A stretch of DNA of 32,000 bases from Fibrobacter succinogenes subsp. succinogenes S85 (GTDB taxonomy: Bacteria; Fibrobacterota; Fibrobacteria; Fibrobacterales; Fibrobacteraceae). The stretch spans positions 780,001-812,000 of the forward strand of contig NC_017448.1 in the NCBI RefSeq assembly GCF_000146505.1, read 5' to 3'. The notes under the pieces are model-generated. The model made no database searches and had not been told where the DNA came from. It saw nothing but the letters and a program-made list of their open reading frames with translations. This document shows positions 23,649 through 28,664 of this stretch, one piece after another. Within the stretch, counting starts at the first letter, position 1. Each line of letters begins with the position of its first letter. A program made the translations under genes and the position numbers.

Positions 23649-25332
23649 TTAATCCTTGAGACAACGAACTAAAAACTTTTCGTATTTGTTGAAGTTTAGC
23701 AAGCCCGCGTTTTCAGTTTCGGAAAACAGAATCATGCTGTATGCGGTTGAATAATTGGGTTCCGTAGAACTCCAGAAGTGCGTGCTGATAACATCAATAG
23801 GCAAAGCACTGAACCCGAAGGAATCTTCATTACAGTTATAACACCAGGCGCTCTTGGACTTGAGTTTGGGACCGGCCGTAGTCGCCCCCCCCAACTGTAG
23901 TAAGTAGGACTTCCCATTCGTCTTTATTCGGCAGGTGCCAACCACTGGGGCAAATTCCCTGCACATGGCCCGTAAAGTCGCACATTTTATCGTAACCGCA
24001 GTTCATTGGATTGATAGTATCGTTCGCCAATTTCACCGAATCAATAGCAGCAGCCCAAGTGTAAAGGCGACCTCCCACATGGCAATACTTCGCCTTATTG
24101 TCATAGCACCAGCTAGAGGAATCGCTAGTGTTGCTGTAGAATTTATATGGAACACGTGTGTAAGCATAATTGAGATTCTGTGCCATCCAAGTTTGCGAGC
24201 CAATGACAACGGTCTTGTATGTTTGACCATCACGCTCATCAGTCATGGAGCCATAGGTAACATCTGGATTCAGGCGAGCATACTTGGGTACATTCCAACT
24301 CCAACCATTGTCCCTGAGGCAACGAACAGAAAAGCCGTCATTTTTATAGTAGTCATACAGATGCATTTCCCCGCTGTTAGCGTCCAAATACACAAAACAC
24401 ACGCCGTTCATACAGCCCTTGTCACACAGCTCACTTCCACCACAGGACTCAGTAGAACTCCAGAATACCGTGAAGTCATTACTGCTTACAAAGTAATCGC
24501 CTCTACTATTCCATAAGCCAACAGGCAAAGCACTGAACCCGAAGGAGTCATCGCCGTTACCATCTTTAGCCCATCCGCTTTGAGACTTGAACCCGATATC
24601 TGCTAAACGTTTGGAACTAAACCGATCGAACAGTCTTCTCCATTCATCCATACTCGGTAGGTGCCAGCCCTCGGGACAAATGCCACGAATCATGTTTCCA
24701 AGGCCACAATACTTGTCGATCCCGCAGTCCAGTGGGTCCAAGCTATCATTAGCCAATTTCACCGAATCGATAGCAGCAGCCCAAGTGTAAAAGCGACCTC
24801 CTACATTGCAGTTTTTCGCCACATTTTTATAGCACCGATTATTGCCCTTAAGACTTGGAGTTGCGGAGCTGTCTGCATAGTTTAGATTCTCCGCCATCCA
24901 CGTTTCAGAATACGGATGTCCTTTCGGGGCAATAGTCACAATCTTATAAACCTTGCCATCACGAGAATCAATCATAGTATCGTACTGTATTTCGGGATTC
25001 AAGTAAGTTTCTTTAGGCACATCCCAGCTCCAGGCAATCTGGGAACTAGACGATTGCTGAATTGATTCAGAACTACTGCTTGACTTTACAGAACTCGATG
25101 ACGAGGACTTAGCCTTTTCACTGCTAGAAGAATTCTTCTGAACGCTAGAACTCGAAGACTTTACTCGAGATCCTGATGAACTCAGCTTTTCCGACGAACT
25201 AGAACTAATCTTGCTTACCGGTTCATCACCCGCACTAACGGAATTACTATCATCTCCGCCACATGCAGCAAGGAACAACAATAAACAAGAAATAGCAATG
25301 CATTTTTTGCCAATAACAATATCAAAGCTCAT
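23649..25332 (-). pseudogene. FISUMP-domain lipoprotein (Ser-rich linker + three paralogous domains) interrupted by a frameshift in a G8 tract
   Basis: The start is MSFDIVIGKKCIAISCLLLFLAAC (lipobox). There is a long S-rich linker and CPEGWHLPSMDEW and CPSGWHLPNKDEW modules. The frame changes at C8 on plus (23885-23892). With G7 the protein reads ...EWEVLLTTVGGATTAGPKLKSKSAW...FGFSALP...VRCLKD. The length is 1684 nt (3n+1). Confidence 0.75.
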
Positions 25333-25405
25333 AAAATCTTCTAAATTAAAATTACCCCACAAATATAAATTATTTCTTCCAAAATAACGAAAGAATGGTT
25401 TCCCC

Positions 25406-26155
25406 ATGCCCATCACAAATAAAGCTACCGTCACGCAATGGAACGAAGAAAAAGGATTCGGTTTTGCAACCGCAAACGGAACAAAATATTTTGTCCATAT
25501 TTCAGCTTTAGGGCATCCCGTGAGACCGCCTAAAGTCGGTGATACAATCATCATCTACAACTTCGGCAAAACTGAGAAAGGCGCAAGAATCGAAAAAGGA
25601 ATTCTCGATGGTGTCGCCTCACGAGACGAGCAAGTAACCTCCCCAGTACGCAAAAATTATCGTAAGACGAAAAAATCCAAGATCGCTGTGATAGTCGCGA
25701 TATGCATTGCGTTAGCATTCGCATTCGACATATACGTAGTTTACACAACCCCCGATGATGCCCCCCGCAAGAAAAAAGTCTGCCTATTAAAAGAAAATCC
25801 CGCCGAAAAGGAATACACATCAAGGCTTCATGTTGCAAAGTACATCTGCGACAACGGACAACTTCCTTCAAACTACATCACCAAAAGCGAAGGCAAAAGA
25901 CTCTACGAGCAGAAAACCGGTCGCAATTTTACCAAATGGAATTTCAATCCTCTCACGACGCTCGGCGTGATGATTGGCGGCGACAACTTCGACAATCGCG
26001 AAGGACAACTGCCTCAAGGAACATGGTACGAAGCCGATGTTGATTACTTCGGAAACAATCGCGGCACAAACCGCCTTATCTATAGCAGCGGTTGCAATAT
26101 CTATTACACCGGCAACCATTACAAAACATTCAATAAAATTGAATTTGGAAATTGA
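25406..26155 (+). CDS. Cold-shock-domain / single TM / barnase-family ribonuclease fusion protein
   Basis: The N-terminus VTQWNEEKGFGFATANGTKYFVHISAL is CSD-like (KGFGFI, FVH). The TM helix is IAVIVAICIALAFAFDIYVVY. The C-terminus LPSNYITKSEGK...GGDNFDNREGQLPQGTWYEADVDYFGNNRGTNRLIYSSGCNIYYTGNHYKTFNKI parallels barnase (LPDNYITKSEAQ...GGDIFSNREGKLP...WREADINY...RNSDRILYSS...YKTTDHYQTFTKI). Confidence 0.85.
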   Translation: MPITNKATVTQWNEEKGFGFATANGTKYFVHISALGHPVRPPKVGDTIIIYNFGKTEKGARIEKGILDGVASRDEQVTSPVRKNYRKTKKSKIAVIVAICIALAFAFDIYVVYTTPDDAPRKKKVCLLKENPAEKEYTSRLHVAKYICDNGQLPSNYITKSEGKRLYEQKTGRNFTKWNFNPLTTLGVMIGGDNFDNREGQLPQGTWYEADVDYFGNNRGTNRLIYSSGCNIYYTGNHYKTFNKIEFGN

Positions 26156-26185
26156 TTAGGTAATTGCGCATTCCAGATAAATTTC

Positions 26186-26896
26186 CTACCCTTCCAATTT
26201 CCAGCCGCAATCATTGTGGTAAATCATCTGGCGAGTCATACCGCCATCGATGCAGATGTTTTCGCCGGTGATAAAGCCGGCCTTGTCGCTTGCAAGGTAA
26301 AGAACCATATTTGCGATATCAAGAGGATTGCCGACACGACCCGCAGGCTGCTGAGTGGCATCAGGACCTTCGTAGACTTTGAAATCCGTATCAATCCAGC
26401 CCGGCGAAATTGAATTCACACGCACACGGCCCGCAAAACTCACAGCTAGCGCATGCGTGAGAGCTGCAATCCCGCCCTTCGCTGCCGTATAACTTTCCGT
26501 TTGCGGTTGGCTCATACGGTCGCGAGATGACGAGATATTTATAATGCTAGCACCCTTTGCAAAATGCGGCGCAAAAAGTTTTGCGAGGTAAAATGGGGCC
26601 GTCACGCCGACAGCTAACGCATAACTGAATTCCTCGTAGCTACATTCGTCAATACCTTTCATGAGCGGGAGTGCGTTATTTACTAGCACATCCACATGAC
26701 CGTATTTTTCGATGACGAATTGCGCAAACTTTTCCAAAGTCTCTTTCTTTGAAAGATCCCCGACAAAACAAGGATTTTCGCGGATATCAATGTACACGAC
26801 ATTCGCGCCCTCTTTTTCAAATTCACTCACTATGGAAGCGCCAATCCCATGTGCTCCGCCCGTCACCACGACCACTTTATTTTCAAACAATTTCAT
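26186..26896 (-). CDS. Short-chain dehydrogenase/reductase (SDR) family oxidoreductase
   Basis: The start is taken at MKLFENKVVVVTGGAHGIGAS (TGxxxGIG). It also has NNA, a catalytic NISS...YTAAKGG (YxxxK) and a PGWIDT motif. Confidence 0.9.
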   Translation of the reverse strand: MKLFENKVVVVTGGAHGIGASIVSEFEKEGANVVYIDIRENPCFVGDLSKKETLEKFAQFVIEKYGHVDVLVNNALPLMKGIDECSYEEFSYALAVGVTAPFYLAKLFAPHFAKGASIINISSSRDRMSQPQTESYTAAKGGIAALTHALAVSFAGRVRVNSISPGWIDTDFKVYEGPDATQQPAGRVGNPLDIANMVLYLASDKAGFITGENICIDGGMTRQMIYHNDCGWKLEG

Positions 26897-27084
26897 AAGA
26901 GTAAATATACATTCCTGTTCTTCTGGCAAGAACGGCCGACAATCATAGGCGACAAAATCAAGCTTTTTGCAAACGGTTGGTTGCAAAATTTAGGGATTTC
27001 TCTTTTTTCAAATATTTCAATTGTAGATTTGGACTCCAAGTTTTTACTTGGAGTCCTTTTCAATATAGACGTAAAGAAAATTTC

Positions 27085-27113: not shown

Positions 27114-27376
27114 ATGAATGTAATAACAAAACCAAAAATTCTAAAAGCAGTAAGGCTTATGTCCCAAAAAGAGCAAGTTCTTTCGCCAAATTGGTAAGAG
27201 ACTTGCACGAGAAAGGGCCTGTCCTACCCAACTGGCCGAACTACAAAAAACTTGTGAACACAAATACGCATCATTGCCACCTATCATACCACTGGGCGGC
27301 ATGCTGGATTGAAACGATTAAAGGAATCGAACTGGAGGTCACCTATGTTGGAAGCCGTGAAAATGCGCCTTACTAG
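27114..27376 (+). pseudogene. RelE/HigB-family toxin, apparently frameshifted at an A5 run
   Basis: The C-terminal frame reads ...FAKLVRDLHEKGPVLPNWPNYKKLVNTNTHHCHLSYHWAACWIETIKGIELEVTYVGSRENAPY*, a RelE-like pattern (...H.L...W...Y......I.......G.RE..Y). That frame has no ATG. The ATGs at 27114 and 27159 are in another frame that stops at 27195-27197. One extra A in the A5 run (27166-27170) fuses them. Confidence 0.45.
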
Positions 27377-27737
27377 CAAGGCAAAAAACGGGACCGTTTT
27401 TACATTCGAAGGGAAAAACATCCCCGATTATCTCGTCATATTTTTAAAGTCCGCTTTTCCAAATGTAGAGGAAATCAAGAGCGAAGACAATGAAGAATCC
27501 ATAAATATTATGGATACCGACTGGTTCAAGGAAACGGAAGCCAGGTCCACTCCCGCTGAAAGCTTAAAGCTTTTGCGAACGACCTTCGGCTACACGCAAC
27601 AACAGCTGGCAGACAAAGCAGGAATTACAAAGCAACAAGTATCTGCAATGGAACGAGGCAAAGAGCCTATCGGACGCAAAATGGCACATCGTCTCGCCAA
27701 CGCTCTCGGAACTAGCTACAAGAACCTGTTCTGGTAA
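27345..27737 (+). CDS. XRE-family HTH antitoxin (HigA-like) with extra N-terminal domain
   Basis: GGAGG lies 6 nt before the ATG at 27345, and the gene overlaps the toxin 3' end by 32 nt. The C-terminal LKLLRTTFGYTQQQLADKAGITKQQVSAMERGKEPIG is an HTH_3 motif. Confidence 0.8.
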   Translation: MLEAVKMRLTSKAKNGTVFTFEGKNIPDYLVIFLKSAFPNVEEIKSEDNEESINIMDTDWFKETEARSTPAESLKLLRTTFGYTQQQLADKAGITKQQVSAMERGKEPIGRKMAHRLANALGTSYKNLFW

Positions 27738-27758: not shown

Positions 27759-28664
27759 TTACTTCGCGAATCCCGGAGGGGGCAAGTGCATACCCGCCAT
27801 CAGGAGTTTGTTTTCACGAGCGTATTGCATAATGCGTTTGCGGCTTGCAGCGGATTTTTCCTTGTCCATATCGTAATTGGAATTGATTTCGGGATGATTC
27901 TTTTGCAAAGCATAGCCGTGCATCAAATCGCCGATTACTAGCAAGTTTGAAATTTTGAAAGCGGTATGTCCCGGCGTGTGGCCAACGGCATCCATCGCAA
28001 GCACTCCATGCGGGAGGCTGTCTCCGAACGCAAACAAATGAAGACTATCTTTATAAAGAGCCATGATGTTCTTTTGCAAATCATTTTTCGGGATGTTGTT
28101 CATCCAAGCATCATATTCCACCTTGCCCGCATAAACGGAAGCATTTTTAAAAACCTTTTCCATCTTTCCGGTGCCACCGCTTTTCACAAGACCTGCAATG
28201 TGGTCTGCATGGAAATGCGTCAAGTAGACAAGACCGATGGAATCCGGATTCACTTTCAAAGCATCAAGACGCTTTAAAAGCTGTCCGCCCCACGCGCCAA
28301 GACCAGCATCAAACAAAATGTACTTACCATCCGTTTTTACCAAGAACGTGCTGACAGAAGCAGGGAGCCCTGCCGGCATATTCAAACTTTCGTAAAGTGA
28401 ATCGCTTGCATCGCTGAAAAGTTCGCGAGGCATAAATTTTTTACCCTCGTTATCCTGAATCCAGGTGACAACAGCTCCGTTCGCAAGCGTAATGGTTTTC
28501 GTTCCCTCAACAGCAAGCGTACTCTCTTTTGCAGGAGCCTCAAAATTTGACGCCACCTTACTTTCCGCAGAATCTTTCGTGGAATTTTTTGATTCGTTGC
28601 AACCAACGACAGTCAAAGCAAGCGCTGCGATAAAAGGAATAAAAATATTGTCAAACAGTTTCAT
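27759..28664 (-). CDS. MBL-fold metallo-hydrolase lipoprotein
   Basis: The signal peptide plus lipobox is FIAALALTVVGC. It has the HFHADHIAG (HxHxDH) motif, a later GHTPGH, and a conserved D/H near the C-terminus. Confidence 0.9.
   Translation of the reverse strand: MKLFDNIFIPFIAALALTVVGCNESKNSTKDSAESKVASNFEAPAKESTLAVEGTKTITLANGAVVTWIQDNEGKKFMPRELFSDASDSLYESLNMPAGLPASVSTFLVKTDGKYILFDAGLGAWGGQLLKRLDALKVNPDSIGLVYLTHFHADHIAGLVKSGGTGKMEKVFKNASVYAGKVEYDAWMNNIPKNDLQKNIMALYKDSLHLFAFGDSLPHGVLAMDAVGHTPGHTAFKISNLLVIGDLMHGYALQKNHPEINSNYDMDKEKSAASRKRIMQYARENKLLMAGMHLPPPGFAK

What the first reader, a model, noticed from the sequence alone, without database searches (positions are those of the whole stretch)
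25406..26155. Cold-shock domain / TM helix / barnase fusion with no adjacent barstar-like inhibitor
The C-terminal ~110 aa align by eye almost block-for-block with Bacillus barnase. They retain equivalents of the catalytic Lys (ITKSE), Glu (WYEADV), Arg pair (RGTNRLIY) and His (NHYKTF), so an active secreted-type RNase is plausible. It is fused through a single TM helix to an N-terminal OB-fold cold-shock domain (KGFGFA...FVHISAL). I do not recognise this architecture. Barnase is lethal in the cytoplasm without barstar, and no ~90-aa acidic ORF lies next to it, since the flanks are only 30 and 73 nt. The RNase domain may be displayed outside the cell with the nucleic-acid-binding CSD inside. 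Alternatively immunity is encoded elsewhere.
Basis: partly seen in the sequence, partly recalled or inferred. Interest (0 to 1): 0.65.

Follow-up and report, generated by a model that had tools for sequence, protein, structure and literature searches.

The report
Membrane-anchored barnase with cytoplasmic cold-shock domain
This Fibrobacter gene encodes a barnase-type RNA-cutting enzyme held on the outer face of the inner membrane by one helix, with a small RNA/DNA-binding cold-shock domain on the inner face; the combination is real, conserved and unstudied, and it has no linked barstar-type safety inhibitor.

Summary
Window 25406..26155 (+) is a 249-aa ORF with three parts: a cold-shock domain (CSD, residues 1-72), one transmembrane helix (93-115) and a barnase-family RNase (136-249).

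- **RNase:** it matches Pfam PF00545 (4.4e-15) and barnase (about 41% identity, Foldseek TM 0.83). All catalytic and guanine-loop residues are kept.
- **Real fusion:** the fusion is in frame in about 18 Fibrobacteraceae genomes. dN/dS is 0.09 for both folded domains.
- **Topology:** all 37 homologues have one hydrophobic segment with more K/R upstream. Paralogues carry the same RNase domain behind lipoprotein signal peptides. Two Cys absent from barnase are invariant. The CSD is therefore cytoplasmic and the RNase faces the periplasm, not the cell exterior.
- **No inhibitor found:** there is no barstar-like ORF in the window or around 89 Fibrobacter barnase genes, and no conserved neighbour. 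A 2012 census lists barnase but not barstar in Fibrobacteres.
- **N-terminal cassette:** the CSD-TM unit is widespread and unstudied. Elsewhere it is fused to Excalibur, sunset or DUF1294 domains, or to nothing.

Best reading: a tethered periplasmic RNase that is safe because it is exported. The role of the CSD is unknown. This is a new variant of a known kind, of moderate interest.

The parts
25406..26155 (+). Complete gene for the 249-aa CSD-TM-barnase protein, including the stop codon at 26153-26155.
   Evidence: The ORF is listed. The exact 249-aa sequence is on record in NCBI/UniRef (P0328). More than 100 homologous protein clusters exist, almost all from Fibrobacter.
25406..25621 (+). 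Cold-shock domain (residues 1-72), predicted to be cytoplasmic. The RNP1-like motif is KGFGFA and the RNP2-like motif is YFVHI.
   Evidence: Pfam CSD scores 18.9 bits, below the cut-off. The family profile hits only Csps in PDB. The AF2 model has pLDDT 89 and five beta-strands. The Foldseek top 50 are all CSDs. W12, F20 and F29 are invariant; F18 and H31 are nearly invariant. dN/dS is 0.089.
25622..25681 (+). Variable basic juxtamembrane linker (residues 73-92, ...RKNYRKTKKSK), predicted to be cytoplasmic.
   Evidence: There are 7 K/R in the 15 residues before the helix. K/R upstream exceeds downstream in 37 of 37 homologues. pLDDT is low.
25682..25750 (+). Single transmembrane helix acting as a signal anchor (residues 93-115, IAVIVAICIALAFAFDIYVVYTT).
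   Evidence: The Kyte-Doolittle mean is 2.69, and it is the only hydrophobic segment; the next best scores 0.58. AF2 predicts a helix at 93-112. The sequence is not conserved but the hydrophobicity is.
25751..25810 (+). Variable periplasmic tether (residues 116-135). In most homologues it is Ser/Pro-rich.
   Evidence: Alignment A1. dN/dS for linker plus TM is 0.575. pLDDT is below 50.
25811..26152 (+). Barnase-family guanyl-preferring RNase domain (residues 136-249), predicted to be periplasmic. Catalytic residues and their codons are K160 (25883-25885), E209 (26030-26032), R219 (26060-26062), R223 (26072-26074) and H238 (26117-26119). The invariant cysteines are C148 (25847-25849) and C230 (26093-26095).
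   Evidence: Supported. dN/dS is 0.093.

Best explanation
The gene encodes a type II (N-in, C-out) inner-membrane protein.

**Shown by sequence and structure comparison.**
- Residues 1-72 fold as a cold-shock domain that keeps the aromatic residues used to bind single-stranded nucleic acid.
- Residues 136-249 are a complete barnase-type RNase with all catalytic and guanine-recognition residues.
- A single hydrophobic helix lies between them.

**Inferred.**
- The helix acts as an uncleaved signal anchor. The RNase domain is threaded unfolded through Sec, folds in the periplasm and stays tethered to the inner membrane by a 20-35-residue flexible linker.
- There it cuts RNA after G. The purpose is most likely to degrade RNA that reaches the periplasm, for nucleotide or phosphate scavenging or for clearance of foreign RNA.
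- Because the enzyme folds only outside the cytoplasm, no tightly linked barstar-type inhibitor is needed.
- The two invariant cysteines (C148 and C230, at barnase positions Q15 and W94) probably form a periplasmic disulfide. This may make folding depend on export and so add safety.
- The cytoplasmic CSD belongs to a widespread CSD-TM cassette and probably binds cytoplasmic RNA or ssDNA at the membrane. Its purpose is the weakest part of the model. It might help mRNA or membrane localisation, or act in regulation.
For: - **Domain identities** are established.
- **Reality of the fusion.** Full-length in-frame matches occur in about 18 Fibrobacter/Fibrobacteraceae species genomes, including F. 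intestinalis ATCC 43854 and Fibrobacter sp. UWB10. dN/dS is 0.089 for the CSD and 0.093 for the RNase, against 0.575 for the linker plus TM.
- **Topology.**
  - All 37 homologues have one hydrophobic segment. Mean K+R in the 15 residues upstream is 4.9 against 1.8 downstream, and upstream exceeds downstream in 37 of 37.
  - The post-TM linker is Ser/Pro-rich and variable.
  - Fibrobacter paralogues carry the same RNase domain, with the same two Cys, behind a lipoprotein signal peptide (L054 2782..3339 and L058 2755..3363) or behind a K-rich tail plus TM (P0117).
  - C148 and C230 are invariant in 37 of 37 and are absent from barnase.
- **Disulfides in this organism.** The title of MacLellan and Forsberg 2001, seen in a reference list, reports disulfide formation in vivo in an F. 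succinogenes nuclease.
- **No linked inhibitor.**
  - Five different genomic contexts with precomputed Pfam show no PF01337 and no shared neighbour.
  - No barstar-like ORF was found at E<=1 in the ORFs of 88 loci (558 kb) plus the window.
  - No conserved small neighbouring ORF family was found.
  - The tables of Zhang et al. 2012 list Tox-Barnase in fibrobacteres but not Imm-Barstar.
- **Cassette nature of the N-module.** The same CSD plus basic linker plus TM occurs alone (P0134, P0136 and others). It also occurs with Excalibur (P0173, P0273, P0279), DUF1294 (P0259) or a sunset domain (P0292).
Against: - Nothing was tested biochemically.
- Topology rests on the positive-inside rule, on paralogues and on the conserved Cys pair, not on a dedicated predictor or reporter fusions.
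- The distance between C148 and C230 in the model could not be read, because no coordinates were available. The disulfide is therefore inferred only from the alignment and from my recollection that barnase His18, one helical turn from position 15, contacts Trp94.
- All reported recombinant expression of active barnase needed barstar even with a signal peptide (PMC8403359). An unlinked or non-homologous inhibitor may therefore exist in Fibrobacter.
- Only single-sequence phmmer, which has limited sensitivity, and Pfam hits on neighbours were used to look for barstar. Whole genomes were not searched.
- A CSD on the opposite side of the membrane from the RNase has no obvious functional logic. The model does not explain why the CSD is as strongly conserved as the enzyme.
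Confidence: 0.6

Rival explanations
1. It is an interbacterial or polymorphic-type barnase toxin. The RNase is delivered to competitors, for example on vesicles or by contact. The producer is protected by an immunity protein that is encoded elsewhere or is unrelated to barstar.
For: - Barnase domains are common toxin modules, and Fibrobacteres are listed among the carriers.
- Several barnase paralogues occur per Fibrobacter genome, for example RUG12208 with L011, L019 and L060.
- The gene's modules are mosaic between close strains. Identity to the window protein across CSD / linker+TM / RNase is 95/96/83% for P0001 but 94/26/95% for P0005. dS is 0.98 in the RNase part against 0.15-0.32 in the rest for window versus L010. 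This resembles toxin-module recombination.
- An unannotated 113-114-aa ORF lies just upstream on the same strand in four loci (L001, L002, L003, L027).
Against: - There is no trafficking or repeat domain such as RHS, filamentous haemagglutinin, WXG or PAAR. The N-terminus is a cytoplasmic CSD.
- No adjacent immunity gene is seen in most of the 89 loci, and there is no conserved neighbour.
- The RNase domain is under strong purifying selection (dN/dS 0.093), with none of the hypervariability typical of toxin/immunity pairs.
- A protein anchored in the inner membrane has no evident route out of a diderm cell.
- PADLOC gives no match.
Confidence: 0.15
2. Both domains act on the same, cytoplasmic, side. 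The hydrophobic segment would only tether a CSD-guided RNase to the inner face of the membrane, as in RNase E or RNase Y. The CSD would recruit RNA substrates, as the CSDs of RNase II and RNase R do.
For: - The combination of a CSD and an RNase makes best functional sense on one side of the membrane. This rests on established knowledge of RNase II/R architecture, not on a test here.
- The CSD keeps its nucleic-acid-binding aromatic residues.
- No dedicated topology predictor was run.
Against: - A 19-23-residue segment with a Kyte-Doolittle mean of 1.9-2.8 is long and hydrophobic enough to span the membrane.
- The charge bias is N-in in 37 of 37 homologues.
- The same RNase domain sits behind lipoprotein signal peptides in paralogues.
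- Two invariant Cys suit an oxidising compartment.
- The same CSD-TM cassette carries Excalibur, which Pfam describes as a calcium-binding domain and which I recall (not tested here) as extracellular.
Confidence: 0.1
3. The fusion is not real. Under this reading, the true product is the 155-aa protein called in the source genome, or a signal-peptide form that starts near the helix. The upstream 'CSD' would then be untranslated sequence or an assembly or annotation artefact.
For: - One annotation of the source genome calls only 155 aa, starting at a GTG inside the helix (P0055).
- Several database homologues of 151-153 aa start at a Met within the helix (P0106, P0109).
Against: - The CSD codons show dN/dS of 0.089 with a median dS above 1, and 51-95% amino-acid identity across the family. 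Untranslated sequence would not show this.
- The long form is in frame in about 18 genomes and more than 50 full-length protein clusters.
- The short calls begin inside the hydrophobic core and lack a positively charged n-region.
- The 249-aa form is also on record for the same 3.84-Mb contig.
Confidence: 0.03

Closest known systems
Barnase (Bacillus amyloliquefaciens) and binase; Pfam PF00545, the microbial N1/T1 RNase family
   Same: - About 41% identity over about 105 residues.
- The same alpha+beta fold (TM 0.82-0.84).
- The same catalytic Lys, Glu, Arg, Arg and His and the same guanine-recognition loop FxNRE.
- An extracytoplasmic destination.
   Different: - It is not secreted through a cleavable N-terminal signal peptide. 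It is anchored by an internal signal-anchor helix that follows a folded cytoplasmic domain.
- It has two invariant Cys, at barnase positions 15 and 94, which barnase lacks.
- It has a 5-residue insertion after helix 2.
- No barstar was detected nearby, and a 2012 census reported none for the phylum.
Fibrobacter lipoprotein-type and K-rich-tail/TM-type barnase paralogues (for example L054 2782..3339, L058 2755..3363, P0117/P0311)
   Same: - The same RNase subfamily (44-66% identity across the RNase-domain-only loci) with the same two Cys.
- Membrane-tethered through a flexible Ser/Pro/Thr-rich linker.
- No adjacent inhibitor gene.
   Different: The anchor is a lipobox signal peptide or a short Lys-rich tail plus TM. 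There is no cold-shock domain.
Membrane-anchored cold-shock-domain proteins: CSD-TM alone, CSD-TM-Excalibur, CSD-DUF1294 and CSD-TM-sunset. PDB 2k5n, titled the N-terminal domain of Erwinia ECA1580, is a solved CSD among the structural matches; whether ECA1580 is membrane-anchored was not checked here.
   Same: An N-terminal CSD with the motif W-x-[DE]-x-[KR]-GFGF ... F-[VI]-H-I-S-A ... R-x-P-x-x-G-D, then a basic linker and a single TM helix.
   Different: The C-terminal extracytoplasmic part is an enzyme (barnase), not a small Excalibur or sunset domain or the DUF1294 membrane domain. The barnase version was seen only in Fibrobacteraceae. No member of this class has a published function in the literature searched.
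Tox-Barnase / Imm-Barstar pairs of polymorphic toxin systems (Zhang et al. 2012, PMC3482391)
   Same: The barnase-clade RNase domain. Fibrobacteres are listed among the carriers of Tox-Barnase.
   Different: There is no trafficking domain and no toxin-immunity gene order. Imm-Barstar is not listed for Fibrobacteres and was not found next to any of the 89 loci.

Membership tests
Barnase / microbial RNase family (PF00545) | Profile-HMM match above the curated threshold | tested here: met
   56.4 bits against a cut-off of 24, E 4.4e-15, residues 148-245. Barnase in PDB scores E about 5e-17.
Barnase / microbial RNase family (PF00545) | Catalytic residues equivalent to barnase K27, E73, R83, R87 and H102, and the guanine loop N58/R59/E60 | tested here: met
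   K160, E209, R219, R223 and H238 align with these residues and are invariant in 37 of 37 sequences. N197 is invariant; R198 is kept in 34 of 37 and E199 in 33 of 37.
Barnase / microbial RNase family (PF00545) | Alpha+beta barnase fold | tested here: met
   The AF2 model has pLDDT of about 90-95 in the domain. Foldseek against barnase and binase gives TM 0.82-0.84 and rmsd 2.3-2.4 A. This is a predicted, not solved, structure.
Barnase / microbial RNase family (PF00545) | Guanyl-preferring endoribonuclease activity | not testable with these tools
   This needs an enzyme assay of the purified domain.
Classical barnase-barstar pair | A cognate barstar (PF01337) inhibitor in the same genome | tested here: inconclusive
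   None was found in the 32-kb window, in five annotated neighbourhoods, or in the ORFs of the 88 Fibrobacter-related loci (558 kb) and the window. A 2012 census does not list barstar in Fibrobacteres. Whole genomes could not be searched here.
Classical barnase-barstar pair | A cleavable N-terminal signal peptide giving a free secreted enzyme | tested here: not met
   The N-terminus is a folded CSD. The only hydrophobic segment is at residues 93-115 and has no conserved A-x-A cleavage motif across the family.
Cold-shock domain (PF00313) | Profile-HMM match above the curated threshold | tested here: not met
   18.9 bits against a cut-off of 27; only residues 6-35 align. NCBIfam Csp models score far below their cut-offs.
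Cold-shock domain (PF00313) | Five-stranded OB beta-barrel superimposable on CspA/CspB | tested here: met
   The model of residues 1-72 has pLDDT 89 and five strands. The Foldseek top 50 are all CSDs, with TM 0.72-0.81 and rmsd about 1.8-2.1 A to Bc-Csp. The family profile hits only Csps in PDB, best E 4.4e-5 over positions 8-61.
Cold-shock domain (PF00313) | RNP1 (K-G-F-G-F-I) and RNP2 (V-F-V-H-F) aromatic residues used for nucleic-acid binding | tested here: met
   The motifs are KGFGFA and YFVHI. W12, F20 and F29 are invariant. F18 is kept in 35 of 37 (otherwise Y) and H31 in 35 of 37. Binding itself was not tested.
Membrane-anchored CSD cassette (CSD-TM-X) | An N-terminal CSD, a basic linker and a single TM helix | tested here: met
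   The layout matches P0134, P0136, P0139, P0142, P0173, P0273, P0279 and P0292.
CSD-DUF1294 / CSD-Excalibur proteins | A C-terminal DUF1294 (PF06961) or Excalibur (PF05901) domain | tested here: not met
   Only PF00545 is found C-terminal to the helix.
Polymorphic toxin (Tox-Barnase) | An N-terminal trafficking or repeat module and an immunity gene immediately downstream | tested here: not met
   There is no such domain. The downstream gene is a convergent SDR. No conserved small neighbour was found in 89 loci.
Anti-phage defence systems (PADLOC) | A match to a model of a known defence protein | tested here: not met
   There was no PADLOC hit for the protein or for its CSD.

The most novel reading that the evidence does not exclude
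The CSD-TM cassette may be a general, so far unrecognised device that links binding of cytoplasmic single-stranded RNA or DNA to domains working outside the cytoplasm (barnase here; Excalibur, sunset and DUF1294 elsewhere). In the Fibrobacter proteins it would replace barstar as the safety mechanism. The first-emerging CSD would hold the translating mRNA at the membrane so that the RNase is inserted strictly co-translationally. A periplasm-only disulfide (C148-C230) would then keep any cytoplasmic copy unfolded. This would make Fibrobacter a lineage that runs several barnase-type RNases with no protein inhibitor at all.
Probability: 0.15. Interest if true: 0.7.

Novelty: new variant of a known kind. 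Interest (0 to 1): 0.45.

Why it matters
Barnase and barstar are the textbook case of a lethal enzyme that needs a dedicated inhibitor. A whole bacterial lineage appears to keep several active-looking barnase genes with no detectable barstar. All of them are membrane-tethered and all carry a new conserved Cys pair. This offers a natural test of how cells can make such an enzyme safe through architecture alone, namely co-translational export and oxidative folding.

The finding also draws attention to the CSD-TM cassette. It is a widespread family of membrane-anchored cold-shock domains, and no functional study turned up in the literature searched. The Fibrobacter fusion gives that cassette an assayable partner. 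On the practical side, a self-contained exported barnase could be useful wherever barnase expression is limited by toxicity. A periplasmic RNase may also help explain the nuclease barrier of Fibrobacter. None of this changes what is known about either domain, so the finding is of moderate, not high, importance.

Tried and rejected
- **Barstar in the window.** phmmer with B. amyloliquefaciens barstar (sequence from my own knowledge) against all stop-to-stop ORFs of at least 50 aa gave only chance-level matches (best E 0.2-0.3). A Pfam scan of ten small ORFs gave VanZ, DUF4423, GNAT, HTH_3 and MauE-like hits, but no PF01337.
- **Barstar or any conserved immunity gene around relatives.** The precomputed Pfam of five contexts shows none. 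phmmer over the ORFs of the 88 loci (558 kb) and the window found nothing at E<=1. Clustering of neighbouring ORFs found only a syntenic aminotransferase/SDR context, the ubiquitous Fib_succ_major proteins and shadow ORFs.
- **The 113-114-aa ORF upstream in UWB10.** It is present in only four loci and absent from the window, so it is not a general partner.
- **Defence-system reading.** There was no PADLOC hit.
- **Promoter and terminator scan of 25100-26400.** It gave nothing above the shuffled expectation.
- **Signal-peptidase cleavage after 'AFA'.** I rejected this as the general mechanism. The motif is not conserved in homologues and lies in the middle of the hydrophobic run.
- **Literature.** I searched for Fibrobacter barnase or barstar, for DUF1294 or Excalibur with cold-shock domains, and for membrane-anchored cold-shock proteins. 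No functional study was found.
- **Technical failures.** One script call failed on the remote machine and was repeated, and one literature query was malformed.
- **Searches not spent.** I did not use the last large protein search on barstar. A Bacillus query would not rank Fibrobacter proteins within the listed hits.
Full report
**What is there.** Window 25406..26155 (+) is an ATG-initiated ORF of 249 codons. It lies 73 nt from a divergent gene and 30 nt from a convergent one. The divergent gene encodes a Fib_succ_major lipoprotein. I place its true start at 25332, at a Met followed by the lipobox LAAC, from my reading of the translation. The convergent gene is a short-chain dehydrogenase at 26186..26986 (-). 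The minus-strand ORFs inside the gene (25551..25871 and 25868..26119) have no support and are shadow ORFs. The window closely matches Fibrobacter succinogenes MAGs (best 88% identity). Its neighbours are typical Fibrobacter genes, and the source contig is 3,843,004 bp long.

**The RNase domain.**
- Residues 148-245 match Pfam PF00545 at E 4.4e-15, with 56.4 bits against a cut-off of 24.
- phmmer against PDB sequences finds barnase and binase at about 5e-17 over residues 143-245.
- In that alignment K160, E209, R219, R223 and H238 fall on barnase K27, E73, R83, R87 and H102. FDNREG falls on the guanine-recognition loop FSNREG.
- In a 37-sequence family alignment (A1) all five catalytic residues, plus D193 and N197, are invariant.
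- An AlphaFold2 model built on A1 has pLDDT of about 90-95 in this domain. It superimposes on barnase and binase with TM 0.82-0.84 at about 41% identity.
- Nothing in the sequence suggests an inactive enzyme.

**The N-terminal domain.**
- Pfam CSD scores only 18.9 bits against a cut-off of 27, so by that single criterion membership is not met.
- A profile of 17 family N-domains (A2) hits nothing but cold-shock proteins in PDB, with best E 4.4e-5 over almost the full length.
- The AF2 model of residues 1-72 has pLDDT 89 and five strands. Its top 50 Foldseek matches are all cold-shock domains, with TM 0.72-0.81.
- The RNP1 and RNP2 aromatic residues are kept. W12, F20 and F29 are invariant, and F18 and H31 are nearly invariant.
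- It is therefore a divergent but genuine CSD that probably still binds single-stranded nucleic acid.

**The fusion is real.**
- A search with the whole protein found 141 proteins (120 listed), more than 100 of them spanning 98-100% of the query. Every hit that carries a source organism name is Fibrobacter or Fibrobacterales.
- A scan of one genome per GTDB species found full-length in-frame matches in about 18 Fibrobacter/Fibrobacteraceae genomes, including F. intestinalis ATCC 43854. The isolate Fibrobacter sp. UWB10 carries it as well.
- Nei-Gojobori dN/dS over 18 genes is 0.089 for the CSD and 0.093 for the RNase, but 0.575 for the linker plus helix. The N-terminal codons are therefore translated and constrained.
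- One annotation of the source genome calls a 155-aa product that starts at a GTG inside the helix (P0055). That call is a truncation. The 249-aa form is also on record.

**Topology.**
- Every one of the 37 homologues has exactly one strongly hydrophobic 19-residue window, with a Kyte-Doolittle mean of 1.9-2.8. Its sequence is not conserved but its character is.
- K+R in the 15 residues upstream averages 4.9 against 1.8 downstream, and upstream exceeds downstream in 37 of 37. With no N-terminal signal peptide, this predicts N-in, C-out.
- Three independent observations agree:
  - The segment after the helix is a variable, mostly Ser/Pro-rich tether.
  - About 60 of the 79 loci returned by the genome scan, nearly all from Fibrobacter or Fibrobacteraceae genomes, match only the RNase domain. 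In the two such loci examined (L054, L058) the gene encodes a paralogue with the same RNase domain behind a lipoprotein signal peptide and Ser-rich linker. Others have a Lys-rich tail plus a TM helix (P0117/P0311).
  - All these forms share two invariant Cys (C148 and C230) that barnase lacks.
- The two Cys fall on barnase positions 15 and 94. From my own knowledge, barnase His18, one helical turn from position 15, packs on Trp94, so a disulfide is geometrically plausible. I could not measure it because model coordinates are not exposed.
- That F. succinogenes forms disulfides in an exported nuclease is indicated by the title of MacLellan and Forsberg 2001, seen in a reference list.
- Because Fibrobacter is diderm, the RNase faces the periplasm, tethered to the inner membrane, rather than the outside of the cell.

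**No linked inhibitor.**
- There is no barstar-like ORF in the window.
- Five different genomic contexts of full-length homologues share no neighbour and show no PF01337. These are the UWB10 context, a context syntenic with the window, one next to NERD genes, one after rpsP-rimM-trmD-rplS, and one beside a cellulase gene.
- Across the ORFs of the 88 loci (558 kb) and the window, which together hold 89 barnase-family genes, phmmer with barstar finds nothing at E<=1. Clustering of neighbouring ORFs reveals no conserved small partner.
- The tables of Zhang et al. 2012 list Tox-Barnase in fibrobacteres, while the phyletic list for Imm-Barstar omits them.
- This does not prove absence, since whole genomes could not be searched and the phmmer query was a single sequence.
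- It is still notable, because reports of recombinant active barnase all required barstar even with export signals (PMC8403359).
- The lipoprotein paralogues also lack a partner, so the CSD cannot be the general substitute for barstar. Export, perhaps together with oxidative folding, is the simplest explanation.

**The CSD-TM cassette.**
- Searches with the N-domain profile recover many 95-135-aa proteins that consist of a similar CSD, a basic linker and a C-terminal TM helix. They come from cyanobacteria, Enterobacterales and other groups.
- Longer proteins have the same cassette followed by other domains:
  - Excalibur (P0173, P0273, P0279);
  - DUF1294 (P0259; P0244 and P0293 by sequence);
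  - a sunset domain (P0292).
- The closest non-barnase relative of the Fibrobacter N-module is a CSD-TM-Excalibur protein (P0173/P0310, E 4e-25).
- The barnase fusion thus looks like one more use of a pre-existing cassette. So far it has been seen only in Fibrobacteraceae.
- I found no functional study of any membrane-anchored CSD.

**How it most likely works.**
- Shown: an active-looking barnase domain, a CSD that looks competent to bind nucleic acid, and one membrane-spanning helix between them.
- Inferred: the helix is an uncleaved signal anchor. The RNase is exported unfolded, folds (probably with a disulfide) in the periplasm and degrades RNA there while tethered. Because it never folds in the cytoplasm, no linked inhibitor is required.
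- The physiological role is a guess based on analogy with other periplasmic and extracellular nucleases. It could be nucleotide or phosphate scavenging, or clearance of foreign RNA.
- What the cytoplasmic CSD contributes is unknown. Its conservation, equal to that of the enzyme, says it matters.
- I put 0.6 on this overall model. The topology and activity parts are stronger than the role.

**Rival explanations.**
- An interbacterial toxin with unlinked immunity (0.15) is favoured by the multiple paralogues per genome and by module mosaicism. It is disfavoured by the lack of any trafficking domain or immunity neighbour and by strong purifying selection.
- A cytoplasmic, membrane-tethered, CSD-guided RNase (0.1) is functionally attractive. 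It is contradicted by the charge bias, the lipoprotein paralogues, the Cys pair and the toxicity of cytoplasmic barnase.
- An annotation or assembly artefact (0.03) is refuted by dN/dS and by conservation across genomes.

**Novelty and score.** Both domains and the CSD-TM cassette are known kinds. Databases already label homologues as 'ribonuclease domain-containing protein' or 'cold shock CspA family protein'. The specific architecture, its restriction to Fibrobacter, the conserved Cys pair and the apparent absence of barstar have not been described in the literature I could search. I rate it a new variant of a known kind, with interest 0.45.

Noticed in passing
window 25406-26155 compared with P0001, P0005 and L010: The gene is mosaic between close relatives. 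Identity to the window protein across CSD / linker+TM / RNase is 95/96/83% for P0001 but 94/26/95% for P0005. dS for window versus L010 is 0.32/0.15/0.98. This points to recombination that swaps modules between alleles.
   Followed up: partly
L001 9610-9954; L002; L003 77-418; L027 2600-2950: An unannotated 113-114-aa ORF with no Pfam hit lies 46-50 nt upstream on the same strand as the CSD-TM-barnase gene. It is present in Fibrobacter sp. UWB10 and three other loci only, and absent from the window. It could be a lineage-specific partner or inhibitor.
   Followed up: partly
window 25694-26155 (P0055): One annotation of the source genome calls a 155-aa truncated product that starts at a GTG inside the transmembrane helix. 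Several database homologues of 151-153 aa look like the same kind of mis-call.
   Followed up: yes
L054 2782-3339; L058 2755-3363; about 60 loci among L028-L088: Fibrobacter genomes usually carry one or more further barnase paralogues with a lipoprotein signal peptide (...AAC|S) and a Ser-rich linker. A third form has a Lys-rich tail, a TM helix and a Pro/Thr/Glu-rich linker (P0117). All three share the two-Cys RNase domain and all are membrane-tethered.
   Followed up: partly
L091 5001-5756 (P0176, Fibrobacter sp. MAG JAZLIJ01): This is a divergent CSD-TM-barnase copy. The catalytic His equivalent is replaced (…YYTKDLNNTF) and the NRE guanine loop is lost. It may be an inactive pseudo-enzyme paralogue.
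   Followed up: no
L089/L090 5001-5591 (P0310): The closest non-barnase relative of the N-terminal module is a CSD-TM-Excalibur protein. It lies just downstream of McrB- and McrC-like restriction genes in a metagenomic contig.
   Followed up: no
P0136 (CSD-TM protein, 111 aa): This membrane-anchored CSD protein from another lineage matches the PADLOC CSD_V model (PDLC02916) at 5e-7. From its name I take CSD_V to be a retron type V effector model; the library gives no description. It also weakly matches the NCBIfam retron Se72 effector model. The window's CSD matches neither.
   Followed up: no
window 23836-25554 (-): This is a Fib_succ_major (PF09603) lipoprotein gene with long Ser-rich linkers and two copies of the paralogous domain. 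The listed ORF over-extends by 74 codons into the RNase gene; the likely start is at 25332. Fib_succ_major genes neighbour barnase genes in 22 of 89 loci, which probably only reflects how abundant they are.
   Followed up: partly
window 27309-27737 (+) and 27759-28664 (-): An HTH_3/XRE-type regulator lies next to a metallo-beta-lactamase-fold protein. The orthologue of the latter in L004 has a weak Anti-Pycsar Apyc1 Pfam hit.
   Followed up: no
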